DNA of 64,000 nt from an uncultured virus (IMG/VR IMGVR_UViG_3300032324_000268) (lineage: Duplodnaviria; Heunggongvirae; Uroviricota; Caudoviricetes), in the IMG/VR virus record IMGVR_UViG_3300032324_000268. One strand, written 5' to 3'. Position 1 is the stretch's first letter. Each line of letters starts with the position of its first letter. Below are positions 1,582-20,972 of the stretch, piece after piece. The position numbers and the translations under genes are program-made. The notes under the pieces were generated by a model that searched no databases, was not told the origin of the DNA, and saw only the letters and a program-made list of their open reading frames with translations.

Positions 1582-2226
1582 ATGGCCGTTTACTACGCAA
1601 GAGATAAGATATTTGGGAATCTAGCTGTGCCTACCGCTAGGTGTGTTGGTCCTATATCTTCGTATGGTTCTAATGCCAACAATCTAACACTTATTAGCTC
1701 TTACGTTTCCTTTACTCCTATTTATACAAACACCGCAAGAACTATTACAACAGCTCAATTTATCGTTACCACACAAGCAACAGCTACTGGTACGCCCTCG
1801 ATACAAATTGCCATGTACAACTGTAGATTAAACCAGCTGGCACCAAGCACCCAAATAGCGAATACTTTAACCACAAACATAGTTGCTACCGCAACTGGCG
1901 TAAAAACAATAACATTCTCCCCAACTTGGGTTCTACCAAAGGGCCTAAGTTTTTTCGGTATGAACATAAAAGCAACTGCAAGTAACAACACTTGTCAAGT
2001 AAGAGGATTAGACGGTTCTGGAAGAGAAGGTTCATTTCTCGGTAACATAGGAGCTGGGTGGGATGGCACAAACCCCACAAATCAGTTTTCTAATGCCGGA
2101 ATACCCTATATCTTCATCGGTGAAAATACAAACCTATCCAGCGACTACAGCTCAACAAGCGTTGATTATTCAAACATAGGAGGTGGTCGAACAGATATCT
2201 CATACGTTGGGATATTTTTAAAATAA
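1582..2226 (+). CDS. putative virion/fibre protein
   Basis: 214 aa T/S/G/N-rich ORF in structural cluster. Confidence 0.5.
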   Translation: MAVYYARDKIFGNLAVPTARCVGPISSYGSNANNLTLISSYVSFTPIYTNTARTITTAQFIVTTQATATGTPSIQIAMYNCRLNQLAPSTQIANTLTTNIVATATGVKTITFSPTWVLPKGLSFFGMNIKATASNNTCQVRGLDGSGREGSFLGNIGAGWDGTNPTNQFSNAGIPYIFIGENTNLSSDYSSTSVDYSNIGGGRTDISYVGIFLK

Positions 2227-2227
2227 T

Positions 2228-2524
2228 ATGCCACGCCAAGAATTCTATCAAAATGGTGAACTCGTAAGAGTTGAGGACACCCGAACATTAGCCGAAGCCA
2301 TTGAGGAGAGAAAAGAGGTGTGGGCGGAGCAAACCACTCGGCTTATACGCACCAAGGTCACAGAGACCGACGAACGTAACTGTGCAAACGGAATCTACGA
2401 TGAAGACAAGAGGGCTCAGATCCTCGGCTGGGTTAACGAGTGCCGTAATAAGTATTTAGCTTGCAAGGCGACCGCACTGGCTTGCAGCACTAACGAAGAA
2501 GTAGACGCAATTCGCTACGAGTAG
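2228..2524 (+). CDS. tail fibre assembly chaperone-like (DUF4376-like)
   Basis: Helical acidic protein ending ACSTNEEVDAIRY, after fibre-like gene. Confidence 0.45.
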   Translation: MPRQEFYQNGELVRVEDTRTLAEAIEERKEVWAEQTTRLIRTKVTETDERNCANGIYDEDKRAQILGWVNECRNKYLACKATALACSTNEEVDAIRYE

Positions 2525-2535
2525 AAATACTCTTA

Positions 2536-3117
2536 ATGCCCACTGTCCTCCCATTAAAGATCCGTAAAGCTCCGACGATTTACGAGGTTAGCGCAGCGAG
2601 CAGAGCAAAGGGTAGAACAGGGAATGGCCTGATGAAGGTGAAGGGACCAAGAGCTGGAACGTTTTACGAGCCACCAGGCGCTACTGACGCCCGAAGGTGG
2701 AACTGCGGAGCTACTGGTTTTGAGTTTGTAAAGCCTTCAAGTGGGACGCCGACGTATAGGTATTATCCAAGTATGAATAGGAATAACTGGAACGACGACT
2801 TCCTTTATGGGACACCCACATATGCTGAGTCGAGCCACTCTAGATATGCTTTTTGGCAGTCCGTGTCCCCAAATCTCTACTCATTCCTCAACACTTACCA
2901 CTCTGGAGGATTGCCCGCCAACAAGCTTATTAGGGTATGGGTTTCTTGGGATAGGCTGATGGTATTTCAAATGGGCAGAGAACCTATTTACTCTCCTCAG
3001 TATCAGCTACCTAACGGCAAAATAGTGGATTGTTACTATACTCAAAAGTCTAGAGCCTATGTATATCTCCCGAACTCTTCCGCTGGTGTTTGTTGTCTGT
3101 ATGCTATCTTTGATTAG
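2536..3117 (+). CDS. hypothetical protein upstream of group I ribozyme
   Basis: 193 aa ORF, Tyr/Trp-rich. Confidence 0.65.
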   Translation: MPTVLPLKIRKAPTIYEVSAASRAKGRTGNGLMKVKGPRAGTFYEPPGATDARRWNCGATGFEFVKPSSGTPTYRYYPSMNRNNWNDDFLYGTPTYAESSHSRYAFWQSVSPNLYSFLNTYHSGGLPANKLIRVWVSWDRLMVFQMGREPIYSPQYQLPNGKIVDCYYTQKSRAYVYLPNSSAGVCCLYAIFD

Positions 3118-3125
3118 TTCTTTAA

Positions 3126-3329
3126 CAGATTATCGGCCCATACTGCTTAAATTCGGTGGAACTCTCGAGAGACTCTCGAGACAATACCGAGCCAAGACAT
3201 GCACACTTGCATGTAAGGTGTAGAGACTACTGGAGGGAAAGGAACCCTTAATGACCAGCACGAACAAGCAGGGTGTCTAACGACATCAAGATATAGTCCA
3301 ATCCACCCGGCGACGGGTTGGTATAAATG
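3126..3329 (+). ncRNA. group I intron/ribozyme catalytic core, ORF-less (5' boundary uncertain)
   Basis: P3 CTGCTT(3143)/AAGCAG(3266); P4 TTCGGT/ACCGAG; P5 TCTCGAGA hairpin; P6a ACATGCA/TGCATGT; R element AAGGTGTAGAGACTA; P7 GACTA/TAGTC; P7.1-type insertion; P8 GGTGTC-TAAC-GACATC; S element AAGATATAGTCC; P9 with GCGA tetraloop; omega-G 3329. Confidence 0.92.
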
Positions 3330-3369
3330 CGTTCCTCATTAGGGAGCGGGTCAAAGCATAGATAAGGTA

Positions 3370-3396
3370 TTGACAGATTCTAAAAGGTATTAGGAT
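3370..3396 (+). promoter_or_regulatory. sigma70-like promoter for capsid operon
   Basis: TTGACA-N15-TAGGAT; same short spacing recurs at other promoters in the window. Confidence 0.55.
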
Positions 3397-3582
3397 TTAG
3401 ATTAGCTGTCTGGAATTGGCATGGGCGTACTCGCGGGCCGCCACCGCGTTAGCTGAGACTGGGTTAGCATCGGGCAATAAAAGCTTCGGGATGCCGCCGA
3501 GGAAACCAAACACAGGAATTGCCGTACTCTTCGAGTATGGGTTTACAATTTCTTAACGTATTTCGAAAGGATATTTAATAAT

Positions 3583-4905
3583 ATGGCTACTGATTATACG
3601 AATATCGAGCAGTTGCTGATTTCTGAAAGTAATCGCATCGGCGAAGATATTTATCGCAAGACGGTTGATACGAGCCCCTGGCTCAAATTGGTTAAACAAG
3701 ATGCTTGGCCGGACGAGATGGGTGACACCGTTTCTGTCTTGGTTTACGAGCGGTCGCTTCCTTATGATGCCTCCGGACCTAAGATCAATTGGTCTGATCT
3801 TACGCAAAACGGTGGTGCTTATGGTGGCACGCTGAGCTACAACGGAACCGGAAACGCCGCCGCTAGCTCGGATTCATTCCCTGCTTCCGGTGGAACGCTT
3901 GACTTCGGTCAGACGCTTCGGACTTACGGACTGCAACACGCAGCCCTTGAATCCCCGAACATCTCGCTGAATGACCTGCGCTTCCCCGTTAAACGGAAAG
4001 AACAGCTCTCCAACATTATGCAGATCATGACTGAATCTACGACTGACGTCTGGATTCAGCGGTATCGTGATCAGTACGTTGACCAAGCCGAAAACAAGCT
4101 CTTGGCTACTTCTGCCACGGATCTTACTGGCTTGACCAACGCTGACACCGCAATCACAGGGACCATTCGCACGTTGAAGACTGGTAACAATAGTCGTGCA
4201 AACGTGTCTCCGGCCGCTGCCGACTCTTCATTCGCACACACGACTGCCGCGAATACTGGAGTTACTCAGCTGACCCAAACCATCCTTGATCGGGTGTACA
4301 TGGATCTTCTCCGTAACGGAGCAGGTGCAAACGCCTACGATCGGGCCAACGGAGCCCCTGTGTTCTTGGCGATTATGTCGCCCGAAACCAGTGATTCCTT
4401 GATTCGCGCTAATGCGGATATCCGTCAGGACTTCCGCTGGAGCGAACGAGTCAGCGAACTCCTCGCACCCCTCGGCGTACAGCGCAGCTACCGCAACTTC
4501 CATCACTTGGTCGATGCGTTTGCTCCCCGCTATAACTTGGTTAGCAACGTTTGGACTCGGATTTATCCGTTTGTCCGCACGACCAACCAGAGCCCCAACA
4601 CGAGCCGTCAAGGATTCAAGTATGAATTGAATTCTAACTACCTCACTGCCACCTACGAAGATACCATCATCTTCGTTCCCGAAGTGTTCACCAGCTTGGT
4701 TCCCAAGCCCTTGAGCATTACGGACGGCATGGAGTTCAACGCTCAGAACTATCGTGGTGAGTTCACTTGGAGGAACATCCTCGATCGCGATAACAATCCG
4801 GACGGGACCCTCGGGTTCTTCCGCGCCATTTTCAGTAACGGCGCGAAACCCATCTTCCCGCACATGGGATATGTTATCCGTCATGCGCGTAACACCATCG
4901 CCTAA
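3583..4905 (+). CDS. major capsid protein
   Basis: 440 aa; AAAGGA RBS; biased codon usage; long structured leader; followed by small decoration-like gene and strong hairpin. Confidence 0.8.
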   Translation: MATDYTNIEQLLISESNRIGEDIYRKTVDTSPWLKLVKQDAWPDEMGDTVSVLVYERSLPYDASGPKINWSDLTQNGGAYGGTLSYNGTGNAAASSDSFPASGGTLDFGQTLRTYGLQHAALESPNISLNDLRFPVKRKEQLSNIMQIMTESTTDVWIQRYRDQYVDQAENKLLATSATDLTGLTNADTAITGTIRTLKTGNNSRANVSPAAADSSFAHTTAANTGVTQLTQTILDRVYMDLLRNGAGANAYDRANGAPVFLAIMSPETSDSLIRANADIRQDFRWSERVSELLAPLGVQRSYRNFHHLVDAFAPRYNLVSNVWTRIYPFVRTTNQSPNTSRQGFKYELNSNYLTATYEDTIIFVPEVFTSLVPKPLSITDGMEFNAQNYRGEFTWRNILDRDNNPDGTLGFFRAIFSNGAKPIFPHMGYVIRHARNTIA

Positions 4906-6493: not shown

Positions 6494-6831
6494 AACGCTG
6501 GTTATTCTCCAATTTCCAAGGACTTCTTGCACTGGCTGTTGCCACGACGATTTTCTTTTTCTTGGGGCCAATACTCCAAGGATTTGACACCACCGCAGGT
6601 ACAGTTGATCTGGGTTCACTACATGTTCTAGCCTTCGGCGGTGTCCGCTTTCTTTTCTGCACATTCTTAGCTTGGTCAGTTCTCCAGATGGACTGGAAGA
6701 TTTTGGATAAATATATTGATCGTGGTCTTTTACAAGATGACTGGAAAGATGCTTTCCCAAAGACAAGATTATATGTTTTCGTAGCCGTTTACGGAATCTT
6801 GCTTTTGGCCGCCATTTTATCATGCCGCTGA
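6487..6831 (+). CDS. putative holin (3 TM)
   Basis: Three hydrophobic segments; overlaps endolysin start. Confidence 0.55.
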   Translation: MVKRWLFSNFQGLLALAVATTIFFFLGPILQGFDTTAGTVDLGSLHVLAFGGVRFLFCTFLAWSVLQMDWKILDKYIDRGLLQDDWKDAFPKTRLYVFVAVYGILLLAAILSCR

Positions 6832-7346
6832 TTTATGTTCTGGTTATTGCGATTCTTACCTACCCGCTGGTTGGTAAAGGAGCTACGTCGCCGAGGGAAC
6901 TCATCGTTGACCAGGCAAGAGCAGCAATCGGGATTCGGGAAGCCACGGGTCGGAACGACGGGGCCGTGGTGGACGAGATCCTTTCATCCGTAGATCTCGA
7001 AGGCACTAAAGCTCCTTGGTGTGCCGCCTTTGTTGTTTGGGTTGGCGATAAAGCTTTAACACGTCCTTTCAACCCTTATCCTAGAACCGCTTGGTCTCCG
7101 ACTATGCTTGTTCGACCTACTTGGGATAGAACTAGGGGTGGCAAGCCCTTACAACCAGCGGATGTGTTTGGCGTCTGGTTCAACAGTATGGGTAGGGTTG
7201 CCCATACGGGTATCGTAGAGAAAAACGAGGGGGAGTGGATCGTGACTATTGAGGGCAATACAAATGGTGGTGGATCTAGGGATGGAGACGGTGTTTATAG
7301 ACGGCGAAGGCTTGCTAGAAACATTCTTGGGAGGTCTTGGCTATGA
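6822..7346 (+). CDS. CHAP-domain endolysin with N-terminal signal
   Basis: PWCAAFV, HTGIV, IEGNT catalytic motifs; hydrophobic N-terminus. Confidence 0.85.
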   Translation: MPLIYVLVIAILTYPLVGKGATSPRELIVDQARAAIGIREATGRNDGAVVDEILSSVDLEGTKAPWCAAFVVWVGDKALTRPFNPYPRTAWSPTMLVRPTWDRTRGGKPLQPADVFGVWFNSMGRVAHTGIVEKNEGEWIVTIEGNTNGGGSRDGDGVYRRRRLARNILGRSWL

Positions 7347-7768
7347 GTTTACGCATTGGAGCTATTGGCGTGCAACGAGTGGCCGCAAAACTCTTAGAGC
7401 AAGGTTTTTTGGTTTGCACACCCGTAATTGACGAAGGGTACGATTTAATAACCGATTGGAGAGGCAAACTCAAAAGAGTCCAAGTTAAGACGACCTCTGG
7501 AGCCTCAGACACAAAGACACGCAACAAGCTTAAATTTTTGGCTGTAAAAGGCCCTGGGTATGGGTACGGAGCTCTTCTTAAAGCTTGCAAGAAAAAGGTG
7601 ATCTACAACAAAACTGACTGCGATATCTTTATTTTCTACCACATCCCACAAGATGCCGTGTTTGTAATCCCACGGGCAAAGCTACCCAAGACGAAGTCTA
7701 TCTACTTCGCCGCAAACTCTGGCTGGAGAGATAACTGGGATGTCTTGCGAAATATAAAGAAGGGTTAA
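7337..7768 (+). CDS. PD-(D/E)XK endonuclease (PDDEXK_5-like)
   Basis: YDLITD...RVQVKT...DIFIFY...VFVIP pattern. Confidence 0.75.
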   Translation: MAMSLRIGAIGVQRVAAKLLEQGFLVCTPVIDEGYDLITDWRGKLKRVQVKTTSGASDTKTRNKLKFLAVKGPGYGYGALLKACKKKVIYNKTDCDIFIFYHIPQDAVFVIPRAKLPKTKSIYFAANSGWRDNWDVLRNIKKG

Positions 7769-18927: not shown

Positions 18928-19851
18928 ATGGCAAGTAAACCTAAAAAACCACAATTAGAGCAATACACGGCTCCAGACATCTCGACATCGCTTGACAAGT
19001 TCATTGCCCAAGGAGCCAAGTTCCCTGGAATACAAGATACGCTGACGGAGTCGGCTCGGGCTTCACTGCAAGCTAAAGAGGAATTATTCCCAGGTTATAC
19101 GGGAACCCTCGGCCAAGCTTGGCGGTTGGCTCAGTCTCGTGGTGAGGGTTTGGTTGACCCAGAGACAGCGAAACGTGTTTCTGAAATGGCGGCTCAATCT
19201 GGGTTTGCAACTGGTACTGGTCCGGGTTCAGAACAAATGGGGTTACAAGCAGCGAAGCAGTATGGGTTGACTGCTCAGCAGTTGCAGGATTCTGGCGTCC
19301 AAATGGGTGCCGGTCTACGGGCTGAGGCAAATGCCATGATGCCGTTTCAAGCCATAAATCTTGCATTTACCCCTCAAGCTATCCGAGCTGAAGACCTTTC
19401 GATTGGTCAGGCCAACACTAACATTCGTAACCAGCAACAGATGGTAAACTATCAATATGACCAGCAGTACGGAGGTAATCCTTTTGCCGCTATTGGTGGT
19501 GGGTTGCTTGGGGGTGGAGCTGGGTTTGCTATTGGAAACGCTATTGCCCCAGGAGTTGGTGGGTTACTTGGCGCAGGGCTTGGCTCACAACTTGGGGGTG
19601 GAATGGGTGGAGTGTTTGGAGGAGCTCAGAGCCAGCAAGTCGGTGGTATGTTTGGCGGTCTTGGCCAGAGCCTTGGAACTCTTGGTGGATTACAGATGTT
19701 ATCTGGAGGAGGAAACAACCCATTCTCGTTGTTTAACTCTCGTACAACCGCAACTCCGGCGCAAGGGGTTTACTACAATAACACTCCTATGTCTGATGCT
19801 AGACTTCGGCAAGTTATGTCGACACCCTCTGGGGTTAAAGCAACGCCATGA
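18928..19851 (+). CDS. internal virion/ejection protein (Gly-rich)
   Basis: Gln-rich helix and glycine-zipper segment; first of three ejection-like genes. Confidence 0.6.
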   Translation: MASKPKKPQLEQYTAPDISTSLDKFIAQGAKFPGIQDTLTESARASLQAKEELFPGYTGTLGQAWRLAQSRGEGLVDPETAKRVSEMAAQSGFATGTGPGSEQMGLQAAKQYGLTAQQLQDSGVQMGAGLRAEANAMMPFQAINLAFTPQAIRAEDLSIGQANTNIRNQQQMVNYQYDQQYGGNPFAAIGGGLLGGGAGFAIGNAIAPGVGGLLGAGLGSQLGGGMGGVFGGAQSQQVGGMFGGLGQSLGTLGGLQMLSGGGNNPFSLFNSRTTATPAQGVYYNNTPMSDARLRQVMSTPSGVKATP

Positions 19852-20972
19852 CGCCAGCCGAATACGGATTTGCAGTAGGCCAGCAAATGGCCGCTACTGG
19901 GGACAAGTACCTCATGGGCATTCGTACTGGTCAAGCCCAGCAAGAGCTGAGCATGAGGCAGAAGGCTTTCGAATACGAGCAAGAGCTCAACAACCGAAAG
20001 TTCCCGCTACTTGAAACACAACTAAGAATCCAAACGGATTCACTCAAACTCCAGCAAGACCAACAAAGACAAGCCTTTGATTTACAGAATGCAAATATGA
20101 AATCAGTTGCGGCTATATCCCCGCATTTGCTTGAATTAGATGCCATCTTTAAAACTGGTGATACCTCTAAACTGCTTAACTACGAGGCTCCGGATGTCCA
20201 AATCAATACTGGCAATCCGCTTCTTGACAGCTACGCCTCAACCCTTGCAAAGCAAAGCGTTGTCAAATATAAAAAACAACTTCTAGAAAATGACCAAATA
20301 TTTAAGGCTTGGAATGATTCCGCAGATAAAGCCTTGTCGGTGGCTGGTCGGTATGACACACCTTCAACCATCAAGATGCAACTTATGGACATGGCTCCCA
20401 GACTGCGTAATGGTGGGTTGGCGGCTCTTACCGATTACGAGAAGACAACTCTATTGCCTTACGCTGATAGAACTGCTTACGCCTATAGCCCGGAGAATAT
20501 GGCAAGGATGAAGCTACAGATGGACATGGATGCAAAAGCCCAAAAAGCGGAAACTGAGTTTCTTGGTGTGGTCGGTAAAACTGCTGGTAACATATTGGCT
20601 CCTCTAGAAATGCAAAAAGCAGGAGCTGAGGTGTTTATTAAGGGTGTTAGAGCTCGCCAAGAAAAAAGAACTATGGGACAGCAAAACACTACGAATCAAT
20701 ACAAACCAACAACGACTGAGCCAAAAGATGAAGAAAAAGAGGCTATTAGGTTGGAATTTAAACAAGCTATGGAAGCTGTTCGAGGTGGGGCAAGTGCTCT
20801 GGAGGCTATTAATAAGCTATCTGAATCTATTTTAAAAATCAATAAAAGCGAAATAACTCCAGAAAGTAGGTTAGGAGCTCAAATACAAATACTTAATGCA
20901 ATGAGACAAAACGGTTTGGAACTCCCATTTACGGCAGAAGATTTATCTGGTACTAGCCAAAACCAAGAATAA
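19848..20972 (+). CDS. internal virion/ejection protein
   Basis: Helical Gln-rich; between Gly-rich and giant virion gene. Confidence 0.55.
   Translation: MTPAEYGFAVGQQMAATGDKYLMGIRTGQAQQELSMRQKAFEYEQELNNRKFPLLETQLRIQTDSLKLQQDQQRQAFDLQNANMKSVAAISPHLLELDAIFKTGDTSKLLNYEAPDVQINTGNPLLDSYASTLAKQSVVKYKKQLLENDQIFKAWNDSADKALSVAGRYDTPSTIKMQLMDMAPRLRNGGLAALTDYEKTTLLPYADRTAYAYSPENMARMKLQMDMDAKAQKAETEFLGVVGKTAGNILAPLEMQKAGAEVFIKGVRARQEKRTMGQQNTTNQYKPTTTEPKDEEKEAIRLEFKQAMEAVRGGASALEAINKLSESILKINKSEITPESRLGAQIQILNAMRQNGLELPFTAEDLSGTSQNQE

What the first reader, a model, noticed from the sequence alone, without database searches (positions are those of the whole stretch)
3126..3329. Complete group I ribozyme with no evident host gene
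Seen: every core helix P3-P9 pairs, with AAATTCGG, CCGAGCCAAG, AAGGTGTAGAGACTA and AAGATATAGTCCA, closely resembling the Azoarcus/Anabaena tRNA intron cores. It also has a P7.1-type insertion, a GNRA L9 loop, P9.0 (AT/AT) and omega-G 3329. The core starts ~25 nt after a stop codon, lacks an obvious P2 and has no ORF. The 3' exon hits a stop within 12 codons in all three frames and is not a tRNA. Known phage group I introns interrupt genes. Inference: an intact ribozyme kept in front of the capsid promoter may be a domesticated regulatory or processing RNA.
Basis: partly seen in the sequence, partly recalled or inferred. Interest (0 to 1): 0.9.

Follow-up and report, generated by a model that had tools for sequence, protein, structure and literature searches.

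The report
Group I ribozyme trailing mobile gene
A complete group I RNA enzyme sits directly behind a small gene of unknown function in a lake-water phage, interrupts no gene, and looks built to cut the RNA a few bases downstream of itself instead of splicing, which would be an unusual use of this kind of ribozyme.

Summary
The ribozyme is real: Rfam RF00028 gives 55.6 bits, and helices P3-P9 are supported by covariation. It interrupts no gene.

- **Cassette.** With the ORF just upstream (2536-3117, 193 aa, no known family) it forms an ~825-bp cassette. A 96-97% identical phage lacks it, as do 30 of 32 loci with relatives of the downstream gene.
- **Family.** The same ribozyme family includes ordinary introns: LAGLIDADG-bearing introns in ribonucleotide reductase genes and, by my reading, one tRNA-gene intron. 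These place the guide sequence directly 5' of P3 and omega-G at the G homologous to window G3329.
- **Guide pairing.** In the window and 23 other sequences I picked, the guide pairs with no conserved upstream exon. It pairs with a site downstream of omega-G through an invariant G.U wobble (window G3136.U3351). The flanking pair covaries through all four Watson-Crick types.

This topology matches engineered "self-targeting and splicing" ribozymes. My best reading is G-dependent cutting at U3351|C3352, and possibly release of a 22-nt circle. All chemistry is inferred. The main rivals are an ordinary selfish intron, a 5' splice site inside the ORF (U2942), and a non-catalytic RNA.

The parts
2525..3350 (+). 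Cassette (ORF193 plus ribozyme) that is absent from the nearest relative G001. The left edge is good to about 2 nt and the right edge lies between 3348 and 3351.
   Evidence: window 2200-2523 and 3351-4000 match G001 19488-19811 and 19815-20464 at 96-97%, with 3 nt between them. One search gives the junction sequence; no RF00028 match in G001.
2536..3117 (+). ORF193, a 193-aa protein of unknown function. It is always followed by the ribozyme. Its C-terminal codons overlap the 5' end of the Rfam match.
   Evidence: 26 homologues of 153-195 aa at 55-93% identity; 25 of 26 cover at least 95% of the query. One search is the alignment; no family match and only one distant relative (P0029); a ribozyme follows every homologue whose 3' flank I scanned.
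2934..2942 (+). GGTATGGGT (codons of R/K-V-W-V). This is a 9-nt complement of the guide region and the rival 5' splice site after U2942.
   Evidence: 9 contiguous pairs in 5 of the 6 family members scanned and 5 pairs in L011. L014 carries the same GTATGGGT, so 6 of 7 members in all; the 9-mer class occurs 5 times in 64,000 nt.
3135..3139 (+). Guide sequence GGCCC directly 5' of P3. G3136 forms the G.U wobble. G3135 pairs with the base after the cut.
   Evidence: calibrate the position on the ribonucleotide reductase introns. Searches support the pairing.
3143..3321 (+). Catalytic core. P3 3143-3148/3266-3271; P4 3153-3158/3185-3190; P5 3163-3169/3175-3181; P6 3191-3192/3218-3219; P6a 3197-3203/3208-3214; P7 3225-3229/3294-3298; P7.1-type hairpin 3230-3258; P8 3272-3277/3282-3287; P9 3303-3309/3314-3321 with GNRA loop 3310-3313.
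   Evidence: Rfam alignment. One search gives per-helix covariation: pairs changed on both sides are 4 of 6 in P3, 6 of 7 in P5, 7 of 7 in P6a, 6 of 6 in P8 and 6 of 7 in P9. P7 and the outer part of P7.1 are invariant.
3329..3329 (+). Omega-G (inferred).
   Evidence: It aligns with the G of ..CATTAATG| that precedes the 3' exon in the ribonucleotide reductase introns.
3330..3348 (+). 7-bp hairpin between omega-G and the downstream target. It is the body of the predicted 22-nt excised or circular piece (3330-3351).
   Evidence: three of the seven pairs change on both sides among the 7 family members.
3348..3352 (+). GGGUC, the downstream partner of the guide. The predicted cut is between U3351 and C3352.
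   Evidence: a site is present in 23 of the 24 picked members, 46-109 nt after P7'; the +1 pair is kept in 22 of 24; the helix is in the minimum-free-energy and centroid folds. helix 1: 91% of cells paired.
3370..3375 (+). Conserved TTGACA (promoter-like), outside the cassette.
   Evidence: conserved in relatives with and without the cassette; the scan does not call it a sigma-70 promoter.
3583..4905 (+). Downstream 440-aa ORF, a putative major capsid protein. The label is weak.
   Evidence: no family; model pLDDT 47; no match at E <= 0.001, but many of the top 50 weak matches are named capsid proteins.

Best explanation
Window 3135-3352 is a catalytically intact group I ribozyme without P2. 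It is not an intron of a split gene. It is the 3' half of a mobile two-part cassette (ORF193 plus ribozyme) lying between the tail-fibre-like genes and the promoter and leader of the putative capsid gene.

Its guide sequence (G3135-G3136-C-C-C3139) sits directly before P3. It pairs with G3348-G-G-U3351-C3352, which lies 22 nt downstream of omega-G3329, and not with an upstream exon.

Inferred mechanism:
1. Free guanosine or GTP bound in the P7 site attacks the bond after U3351, which is held in the G3136.U3351 wobble. This severs the read-through transcript into an ORF193-ribozyme RNA and a downstream RNA that starts at C3352.
2. In a possible second step, the new 3'-OH of U3351 attacks the bond after omega-G3329. 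This would release 3330-3351 as a 22-nt hairpin circle and leave the ORF193 mRNA ending in the folded ribozyme.

The net effect is self-made RNA ends at a gene boundary.

Shown here: the ribozyme fold, the cassette indel, the downstream pairing and its covariation across the family. Inferred: every chemical step and the biological benefit.
For: - **Real, selected ribozyme.** RF00028 scores 55.6 bits. 92.4% of cells are paired with 38 of 65 covarying pairs. Across 7 family members the ribozyme is 89% identical and the ORF 71%.
- **No split gene.** ORF193 homologues are full length and end at the same place. Arginine codons AGG, AGA and CGG alternate in the conserved C-terminus, so that part is translated. 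Homology among four different upstream contexts starts at the ATG. No sequence at the left junction complements the guide (my reading).
- **Cassette.** It is absent from G001 at 96-97% flank identity. ORF193 and the core motifs occur together in 2 of 32 loci with relatives of the downstream gene and in none of the other 30.
- **Calibration on true introns.** In six family members (L020, L021, L026, L028, L038, L040) a LAGLIDADG ORF lies between a 5' exon ending AGACGU| and the guide GCGUCU directly before P3. The 3' exon follows ..AAUG|. The two exons match contiguous parts of solved ribonucleotide reductases.
- **Downstream target.** In 23 of 24 members picked from 95 non-identical family sequences, a U-ending complement of the guide (at least 4 pairs) lies 46-109 nt after P7'; L204's first such site lies at +222.
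- **The G.U wobble is invariant.** The next pair, base after U with base 5' of the guide G, is kept in 22 of 24 (19 of 21 distinct) as G-C, C-G, A-U and U-A. At other occurrences of the same 4-mer it is kept in 95 of 218 (Fisher p 3.5e-6). The sequences are related, so this p is only a guide.
- **Position -5 covaries in the immuto-like subfamily.** It is U-A, A-U or G-C in 9 of 9 rows (8 distinct sequences).
- **Thermodynamics.** The minimum-free-energy and centroid folds of 3128-3358 contain the GGCCC/GGGUC helix (z -4.3).
- **P1/P10 exchange is possible.** The base after the assigned omega-G can pair with the same guide-flanking base in 21 of 24. I assigned omega-G by eye.
- **Consistent setting.** In 24 of 26 such ribozymes an open frame of at least 142 codons ends 18-59 nt before P3.
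- **Chemistry is feasible.** An engineered Tetrahymena ribozyme with the target placed after the cargo cleaves the target and joins the cargo's ends, and P1 alone sufficed (PMC10457212, abstract and section 7 read).
Against: - No RNA evidence exists. The three metatranscriptome contig sets show no joints or ends that bear on this.
- In the window the helix has only 4-5 pairs, and position -5 is A x C.
- Such 4-mers occur by chance about once per 200 nt, and one search lists other sites.
- Within the window's own family the helix never varies. All covariation comes from sister subfamilies.
- I picked the 24 members by eye. The other 71 sequences were not classified.
- A native-versus-foreign duplex-energy test could not separate signal from background.
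- A 22-nt circle is very small.
- A 9-bp complement of the guide inside ORF193 could be a conventional 5' splice site.
- In four lineages the GGGU lies 2-3 nt before the next gene's ATG. There it could also be read as a ribosome-binding-like motif.
- The benefit to phage or cassette is unknown.
Confidence: 0.5

Rival explanations
1. It is an ordinary selfish group I intron that landed in a non-coding intercistronic site. ORF193 is its intron-encoded mobility protein, occupying the same slot (between the 5' splice site and the guide) as the LAGLIDADG genes of the ribonucleotide reductase introns. It splices conventionally from a 5' splice site near 2524 to a 3' site near 3350.
For: - The presence/absence difference against G001 spans ORF plus ribozyme cleanly.
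- The distribution is sporadic.
- The ribonucleotide reductase introns of the same family carry their endonuclease ORF in that position.
Against: - Nothing at the left junction complements the guide in the window or in the three other upstream contexts, and homology starts at the ATG.
- ORF193 matches no homing-endonuclease family or any other family.
- This reading does not explain the invariant G.U and the covarying pairing with the downstream site.
Confidence: 0.15
2. It is a conventional intron inside ORF193. The 5' splice site is after U2942 (GGUAUGGGU pairs with the guide over up to 9 bp) and the 3' splice site is after G3329. Splicing would replace the last 58 codons by a short tail, giving two forms of the protein or switching it off. 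This could coexist with the main explanation as an alternative 5' site.
For: - The complement is kept in 6 of 7 family members.
- From the window's own frequency, about 0.045 such sites are expected in a 582-nt ORF.
- In the ribonucleotide reductase introns the 5' splice site also lies far upstream of the guide.
Against: - TGGGT is forced by the invariant V-W-V codons.
- The last 2-3 pairs would unwind P3.
- L011 has a mismatch.
- The C-terminal 58 codons are under protein-level selection.
- The predicted spliced tails differ in length and sequence between relatives (my translation of the sequences).
- No equivalent upstream site is shared within the sister subfamilies.
- The second copy at 3535 is simply one strand of a conserved leader hairpin.
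Confidence: 0.15
3. It is a non-catalytic or decaying ribozyme. It would be kept only as a stable structure at the 3' end of the ORF193 message (a block to exonucleases, or a substitute terminator), or it would be a recent relic. The 5'-3' helix would just close the fold.
For: - The location is intergenic, so there is no need to restore a reading frame.
- No terminator-like site was found in 2400-3700.
- There are no activity data.
Against: - The 20-nt J6/7-P7 core is identical to that of introns whose exons are intact.
- J8/7 matches the Rfam consensus.
- Changes are compensatory.
- The ribozyme is more conserved than the ORF.
- A plain closing helix would not be expected to keep a G.U wobble in every one of 24 sequences while its neighbour covaries.
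Confidence: 0.15

Closest known systems
Phage group I introns with a LAGLIDADG gene in ribonucleotide reductase genes
   Same: They share the ribozyme family: identical 20-nt J6/7-P7 core, no P2, guide directly 5' of P3, a P7.1-type hairpin, and an ORF lying 5' of the core.
   Different: They split a gene whose exons match solved reductases contiguously. Their guide pairs with an upstream exon end. Their ORF is a recognisable endonuclease that reads into the core. The window's element has none of these.
Unannotated ribozyme of Flavobacterium phage vB_FspM_immuto (MW353175), overlain by CDS immuto26A_226
   Same: RF00028 scores 76.9 bits. It starts just after the stop of a small ORF that follows a tail fibre gene. 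Its guide GGUCC pairs with a downstream GGAUC. It is the only cultured-phage match found.
   Different: The upstream ORF is unrelated. A terminator-like hairpin follows the ribozyme. It belongs to a different subfamily (guide GUCC, not GCCC).
[quoted passage not shown]
   Same: The order of parts is the same: guide, core, omega-G, cargo, then a target ending in U. P1 alone suffices for circularising the cargo.
   Different: They are man-made and their cargo is a whole gene. Here the cargo is 17-80 nt (22 nt in the window), and the reaction is only predicted.
c-di-GMP-dependent allosteric group I ribozyme in a Clostridioides difficile 5' UTR (as described in the review PMC3984707; passages read)
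   Same: It is a group I ribozyme in non-coding mRNA that interrupts no reading frame. The choice of GTP attack site decides whether the downstream gene keeps its ribosome-binding site.
   Different: It has an upstream riboswitch aptamer and a conventional upstream 5' exon. No riboswitch family reached Rfam threshold in the window.
Lariat-capping (GIR1) ribozyme (as described in PMC8637638; passage read)
   Same: It is a group I descendant that has become an RNA-end-making device beside an ORF. That its 5' and 3' strands pair to close the fold is recalled, not checked here.
   Different: GIR1 performs a branching reaction, has a diverged core and has its own Rfam family. The window matches only RF00028 and keeps the canonical core.
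Back-splicing giant group I intron ND5-717 of mushroom-coral mitochondria (PMC6545197, search listing only; described in a passage of PMC8637638)
   Same: It is a natural group I RNA whose exon order requires back-splicing to a circle.
   Different: It is organellar, restores a protein-coding gene and is of giant size.
IStrons (PMC4227781, abstract seen in the search listing)
   Same: A group I ribozyme travels with a mobility-type ORF as one element.
   Different: That the IS genes lie 3' within the intron is recalled, not checked here. IStrons still splice from a host gene. No transposase family was found near the window's element.

Membership tests
Group I catalytic intron (Rfam RF00028) | Covariance-model score at or above the gathering threshold | tested here: met
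   55.6 bits against 50. Relatives score 48.1-76.9 bits. Three sequences fall just under 50: L003 and L009 at 48.6 bits and L011 at 48.1 bits.
Group I catalytic intron (Rfam RF00028) | Core helices P3-P9 with the P3/P7 pseudoknot, supported by covariation | tested here: met
   92.4% of cells paired, 38 of 65 pairs with changes on both sides, slid controls 32-42%.
Group I catalytic intron (Rfam RF00028) | P1 helix with a U.G wobble formed by the guide and the end of an upstream 5' exon | tested here: not met
   No complement lies at the cassette's left junction in any of four contexts. The only upstream candidate is inside ORF193 (2934-2942). The conserved U.G partner lies downstream.
Group I catalytic intron (Rfam RF00028) | Interrupts a gene (protein, tRNA or rRNA) that splicing restores | tested here: not met
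   ORF193 homologues are complete. All frames close after 3329. The relative without the element has no gene there.
Group I catalytic intron (Rfam RF00028) | Omega-G at the 3' splice site | tested here: met
   G3329 aligns with the G before the 3' exon of the ribonucleotide reductase introns. This is by homology only.
Group I catalytic intron (Rfam RF00028) | Guanosine-dependent self-splicing activity | not testable with these tools
   Only contigs of three RNA libraries were available, and they showed no joints over the element.
Mobile intron with homing endonuclease | ORF of a known homing-endonuclease family | tested here: not met
   No match in Pfam, PHROGs or the Atlas. The profile search of 1.84 billion proteins found only the family itself, one unannotated distant relative and one spurious repeat protein. 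The model had pLDDT 48 and was not usable.
Mobile intron with homing endonuclease | Presence/absence polymorphism at one site among close relatives | tested here: met
Self-targeting (substrate 3' of omega-G) group I topology, so far known to me only from engineered constructs | The guide 5' of the core pairs with a U-ending site downstream of omega-G, with a G.U wobble and a covarying flanking pair | tested here: met
   (helix 1).
Self-targeting (substrate 3' of omega-G) group I topology, so far known to me only from engineered constructs | Cleavage at the target and joining of the cargo's ends into a circle | not testable with these tools
   This needs in vitro transcription or read-level RNA data.
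Lariat-capping ribozyme (GIR1) | Match to its own Rfam model | tested here: not met
   The whole-library scan at gathering thresholds returned only RF00028.
Riboswitch-controlled allosteric group I ribozyme | Ligand-binding aptamer adjoining the ribozyme | tested here: not met
   No riboswitch family reached gathering threshold in the window.

The most novel reading that the evidence does not exclude
The window's element and at least ten other phage lineages may carry a natural class of self-targeting group I ribozymes, meaning introns that have turned into intercistronic RNA-processing devices. Each starts right after the stop codon of one gene. Each uses its guide sequence on a site downstream of its own omega-G. 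Each would cut the polycistronic late transcript there, in four lineages 2-3 nt before the next gene's AUG. Each could back-splice the short intervening hairpin (17-80 nt) into a tiny circular RNA. In the window's lineage the device travels with a cargo gene as a mobile cassette.
Probability: 0.35. Interest if true: 0.9.

Novelty: new variant of a known kind. Interest (0 to 1): 0.75.

Why it matters
In the accounts I read, group I ribozymes in bacteria and phages are introns of protein, tRNA or rRNA genes. The one domesticated exception described there is the c-di-GMP ribozyme (review PMC3984707, passages read).

A conserved, widespread phage variant would be a second natural re-use of the fold. 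Its guide sequence is aimed at a site behind its own 3' end, always at a gene boundary. The topology is one that RNA engineers arrived at independently for making circular RNA.

If the variant is active, three things follow:
- Phage operons would be cut into separate messages without host RNases.
- A source of very small natural circular RNAs would exist.
- Compact natural scaffolds of about 215 nt would be available for circular-RNA production.

My six literature searches listed no description of such phage elements. That covers only the open-access library searched.

There is also a practical point for annotation. These ribozymes are currently overlain by spurious ORF calls, for example immuto26A_226.

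Tried and rejected
1. **Local P1 candidates near the ORF end.** The hairpin 3095-3100/3125-3130 and the CTTTGAT(3108)/GTCAAAG(3350) pairing are not kept in relatives.
2. **The second GTATGGGT at 3535.** I considered it as a guide target. It is the 3' strand of a leader hairpin that reads GCAATGGG in relatives.
3. **Structure of ORF193.** AlphaFold2 gave pLDDT 48 and was unusable. The Atlas gave no usable hit.
4. **Structure of the 440-aa ORF.** The model had pLDDT 47. The BFVD search gave no match at E <= 0.001.
5. **Duplex-energy test.** Comparing native and foreign 3' flanks over 92 loci gave no separation, because short GC helices are too common.
7. **Long antisense arms like those of L022, L025 and L029.** In the window they are not above shuffles, with 40 of 200 shuffles as good.
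8. **RNA libraries.** Three lake-water metatranscriptome runs held small shares (0.06-0.14). Their contigs cover parts of ORF193 and positions 3092-3299 of the ribozyme at 85-97% likeness. No joint crosses the element. Two contigs stop at 3299, which is probably an assembly break in the conserved core. DNA carry-over cannot be excluded.
9. **ARAGORN.** It did not call the intron-bearing tRNA genes. It found only neighbouring tRNAs in 4 of 8 loci, so the tRNA reading of L024 is my own from its sequence.
11. **P10 through 3' exon TCAAAG.** I found no covariation for it.
12. **A helix between the segment 5' of the guide and the segment before omega-G.** It is 7 bp in the ribonucleotide reductase introns but could not be established in the window.
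Full report

Yes. A scan of the whole 64-kb window against Rfam 15 at gathering thresholds returned a single match: RF00028 (group I catalytic intron) at 3089-3320 on the + strand, with 55.6 bits against a threshold of 50 and E 2.1e-11.

I wrote out the helices in window coordinates (see parts) and counted them on a MAFFT alignment of 14 related sequences.
- 92.4% of cells form standard pairs. The figure is 73.9% after shuffling and 32-42% when every 3' partner is slid by 1-3 columns.
- 38 of 65 pairs show changes on both sides.
- 0 of 500 shuffles reach the observed pairing or covariation score.
- P3, P5, P6a, P8 and P9 covary richly. P7 and the outer stem of the inserted P7.1-type hairpin never vary.
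- L9 is a GNRA loop in all 14.

The Rfam alignment of its P1 and P2 positions onto 3089-3134 is full of non-standard pairs. I give it no weight. There is no P2.

**2. What surrounds it?**

The ribozyme begins 25 nt after the TAG (3115-3117) of ORF 2536-3117. This 193-aa protein has no Pfam or PHROGs match.
- It has 26 homologues of 153-195 aa at 55-93% identity, and 25 of the 26 cover at least 95% of it.
- All of them end in the same ...GVCC(R/L)YAIF(S/D).
- A profile search over 1.84 billion representatives found only the family itself, one unannotated distant relative (P0029) and a spurious repeat protein.
- The AlphaFold2 model was unusable at pLDDT 48.

Every homologue whose 3' flank I scanned is followed by the ribozyme.
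- In one search, 5 of 5 loci had it. L005 and L006 share L004's length, match coordinates and identity, and I did not give them to the scan.
- In one search, L011 and L014 had it.
- Scores ran from 48.1 to 66.9 bits, and three of the seven are just under the threshold of 50.

**3. The ORF and ribozyme are one indel.**

The nearest held virus record is G001 (68,260 bp, complete with terminal repeats).
- It matches window 2200-2523 at 96% and 3351-4000 at 97%, with three bases between the two matches.
- It has no RF00028 match.
- Its sequence runs from the stop codon of the 98-aa ORF straight into ...GCTCAAAATATAGATTAGGTATTGACAG.

Among 32 viral loci encoding relatives (42-98% identity) of the downstream 440-aa protein, ORF193 and the ribozyme's core motifs occur together in 2 and in none of the other 30.

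The cassette has four different upstream neighbours, and homology begins at the ORF's ATG. Downstream it always abuts GGGTCAA(A/C)GCATA...GGTATTGACA.

ORF and ribozyme identities are discordant between members, which suggests recombination between the two halves. For example, L003 against L011 gives 68% for the ORF and 95% for the ribozyme. On average the ribozyme is 89% identical and the ORF 71% (21 pairs of 7 sequences). Substitutions in the ribozyme are largely compensatory.

**4. Is there a host gene?**

I found none.
- The ORF is complete. Its conserved C-terminus is selected as protein, because arginine is encoded by AGG, AGA or CGG in different members.
- All three frames close within 12 codons after 3329.
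- The relative without the element has no gene at the site.
- A conventional 5' splice site at the cassette's left edge would need a complement of the guide sequence there. There is none in any of the four contexts.

**5. Calibrating guide and omega-G on true introns.**

The exact 20-mer of J6/7-P7 (window 3218-3237) occurs in 26 viral contigs. Pooled with the earlier loci, this gave 109 sequences, 95 of them non-identical.

Six of these (L020, L021, L026, L028, L038, L040) are ordinary introns.
- An ORF with LAGLIDADG domains (checked for L021; PF14528, E 4.9e-13) lies 5' of the core and reads into it.
- In all five I examined, the upstream reading frame ends ...G-R-R. In the three whose DNA at that point I read (L021, L028, L038) it is encoded ...AGACGT|. 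That complements GCGTCT, which sits directly before P3.
- The sequence after ...CATTAATG| continues the protein.
- For L021 the two exon translations match solved ribonucleotide reductases over adjoining residues. In 6cgl, the 5' exon's residues 71-150 align to 150-228, and the 3' exon aligns from its residue 4 to 252.

So in this P2-less family the guide is the segment immediately 5' of P3, and omega-G is the G that aligns with window G3329.

By my reading of its flanks, L024 is a tRNA gene carrying the same ribozyme with P1 and P2. ARAGORN did not call it.

**6. Where does the window's guide point?**

The guide is G3136-C-C-C, preceded by G3135. Its only partner kept across lineages lies downstream of omega-G: G3348-G-G-U3351, followed by C3352.

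From the 95 sequences I picked, by eye, the 24 that have a G(C/U)C(C/U) guide directly before P3 and no P2. They are:
- the window and six family members;
- L019, L033, L037 and L044;
- L029, L036, L204 and L258;
- the immuto-like L039, L042, L207, L223, L236, L237, L240, L243 and L263.

The other 71 were not classified. Many of them visibly have P1-P2 hairpins or lie in tRNA or protein genes.

Results for the 24:
- In 23 of 24, a U-ending complement of at least four pairs lies 46-109 nt after P7'. In L204 the first such site lies at +222.
- To avoid choosing sites by their pairing, I took the first downstream occurrence of the 4-mer complementary to the guide and then scored the neighbouring positions.
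- The base after the U pairs with the base 5' of the guide G in 22 of 24 (19 of 21 distinct combinations). All four Watson-Crick types occur: G-C in the window type, C-G in L019 and L223/L236, A-U in L207, L240 and L243, and U-A in L237, L204 and L258.
- At all other occurrences of the same 4-mers in the same loci the figure is 95 of 218 (Fisher p 3.5e-6). The sequences are related, so the p-value is only a guide.
- Position -5 pairs in 17 of 24 against 108 of 218. Within the nine rows (eight distinct sequences) of the immuto-like subfamily it is always Watson-Crick, with three pair types.
- The G.U wobble itself never changes. An invariant wobble beside a covarying neighbour is what I recall of a group I splice-site helix, not of a plain closing stem.

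The minimum-free-energy and centroid folds of 3128-3358 both contain the GGCCC/GGGUC helix (-77.5 kcal/mol, z -4.3, 0 of 200 shuffles as stable).

Between omega-G and the target lies a 7-bp hairpin (3330-3348). Three of its pairs change on both sides among the seven family members.

The base after the assigned omega-G can pair with the same guide-flanking base in 21 of 24. I assigned omega-G by eye from the sequences. This is what a P1-to-P10 exchange would need.

**7. How it most likely works.**

The order of parts is guide, core, omega-G, short insert, then a target ending in U. [quoted passage not shown] There the ribozyme cleaves the 3' target and joins it to the first base after omega-G, circularising the cargo, and P1 alone sufficed (PMC10457212, abstract and section 7).

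By analogy I propose two steps:
1. Guanosine attacks at U3351|C3352, cutting the read-through transcript.
2. U3351 possibly then attacks behind G3329, releasing a 22-nt hairpin circle.

All of this is inferred.

The setting is consistent. In 24 of 26 such ribozymes (the 24 plus L022 and L025), an open frame of at least 142 codons ends 18-59 nt before P3, and another ORF follows. The two exceptions are L029, whose 96-codon frame is cut by the locus edge, and L022.

In L019, L033, L037 and L044 the conserved downstream protein is a virion structural protein (phrog_5838). It starts at an ATG 2-3 nt after the predicted cut.

L022 and L025 extend the guide-target helix to 16-28 bp. They have a TATAAATA motif just upstream, which I recall as the T4 late-promoter consensus, and in L025 a T4-type portal gene lies downstream.

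**8. What argues against this.**

- There is no RNA-level evidence. Three lake-water metatranscriptome contig sets cover parts of the ORF and positions 3092-3299 of the ribozyme but show no joints there.
- The window's helix is short, and it is invariant inside its own family.
- Four-base complements occur by chance about once per 200 nt.
- A duplex-energy test could not separate native from foreign flanks.
- A 9-nt complement of the guide lies in the V-W-V codons of ORF193 (2934-2942) in 6 of 7 members, where about 0.045 such sites are expected per ORF. It could be a conventional or alternative 5' splice site. However, five of the nine bases are forced by the codons, the pairing would invade P3, and the spliced tails are not conserved.

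The rivals are set out with odds in their own section.

**9. Comparison and novelty.**

The element is a member of RF00028 by sequence and fold. It fails two defining features of an intron: an upstream 5' exon helix, and a gene restored by splicing.

It works most like the engineered self-targeting ribozymes. In biological role it resembles the two known re-used group I RNAs: the c-di-GMP ribozyme of C. difficile (review PMC3984707, passages read) and the lariat-capping ribozyme (passage in PMC8637638).

Natural back-splicing by a group I intron is reported for coral mitochondria (PMC6545197, search listing only, plus the passage).

Six full-text searches listed nothing describing phage group I ribozymes with a downstream target. 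The library holds open-access papers only.

I rate the finding a new variant of a known kind.

**10. Context notes.**

The downstream 440-aa ORF is only weakly supported as a capsid protein. Its roughly 205-nt leader is a conserved structured RNA in its own right.

Noticed in passing
window 3376-3582: The leader between the conserved TTGACA and the ATG of the 440-aa ORF is conserved in 13 of 13 relatives aligned, down to 54% protein identity. RNAalifold predicts 31 pairs, 9 of them with compensatory changes (for example hairpins near 3434-3452, 3484-3503 and 3519-3545). There is no Rfam match at E <= 1. It may be an undescribed cis-regulatory leader of the putative capsid gene.
   Followed up: partly
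L022 and L025 (oriented on the ribozyme; about -100 to +230 around the core), and L029: The segment just 5' of P3 pairs with a region 100-200 nt downstream of the core over 16-28 bp in L022 and L025 and 9 bp in L029. This resembles the antisense arms of engineered circularising ribozymes. A TATAAATA motif lies just upstream in L025, L029 and L036, which I recall as the T4 late-promoter consensus. L025 has a T4-type portal gene (PF07230) downstream.
   Followed up: partly
L019, L033, L037, L044 (3' end of the ribozyme): The conserved downstream protein (phrog_5838, virion structural protein) begins at an ATG 2-3 nt after the predicted cut GGGT|(C/G)A. Cutting would leave an almost leaderless message. 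Alternatively, the (A)GGGT could act as a ribosome-binding-like motif masked by the guide.
   Followed up: partly
L010 2386-2641 (MW353175 about 144975-145230): In the cultured Flavobacterium phage vB_FspM_immuto a 76.9-bit group I ribozyme is unannotated. It is overlain by a 44-codon 'hypothetical protein' CDS (immuto26A_226), which is probably spurious. A terminator-like hairpin with a T run follows it.
   Followed up: partly
L169 and L178 leaders, against window 3347-3359: The 13-mer CGGGTCAAAGCAT at the ribozyme's 3' junction in the window recurs inside the capsid-gene leader of two cassette-free relatives. In the window's own leader the corresponding place reads CTGGGTTAGCAT. This may be a trace of recombination or of an ancestral target site.
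   Followed up: no
window 7337-7768: A 143-aa PD-(D/E)XK endonuclease-family ORF (PF11645, E 2.5e-12; phrog_5018) overlaps the end of a CHAP-domain endolysin gene (6822-7346). It may be a free-standing nuclease.
   Followed up: no
window 3092-3299: Contigs from two different lake-water RNA libraries both end at 3299 without loose ends. This is probably an assembly break where related ribozymes diverge. It is not evidence of an RNA end.
   Followed up: no
ORF193 family loci (window, L003, L004, L007, L008, L011, L014): ORF and ribozyme similarities disagree between pairs. Window against L011 gives ORF 82% and ribozyme 86%. L003 against L011 gives ORF 68% and ribozyme 95%. This suggests the two halves of the cassette recombine.
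   Followed up: no
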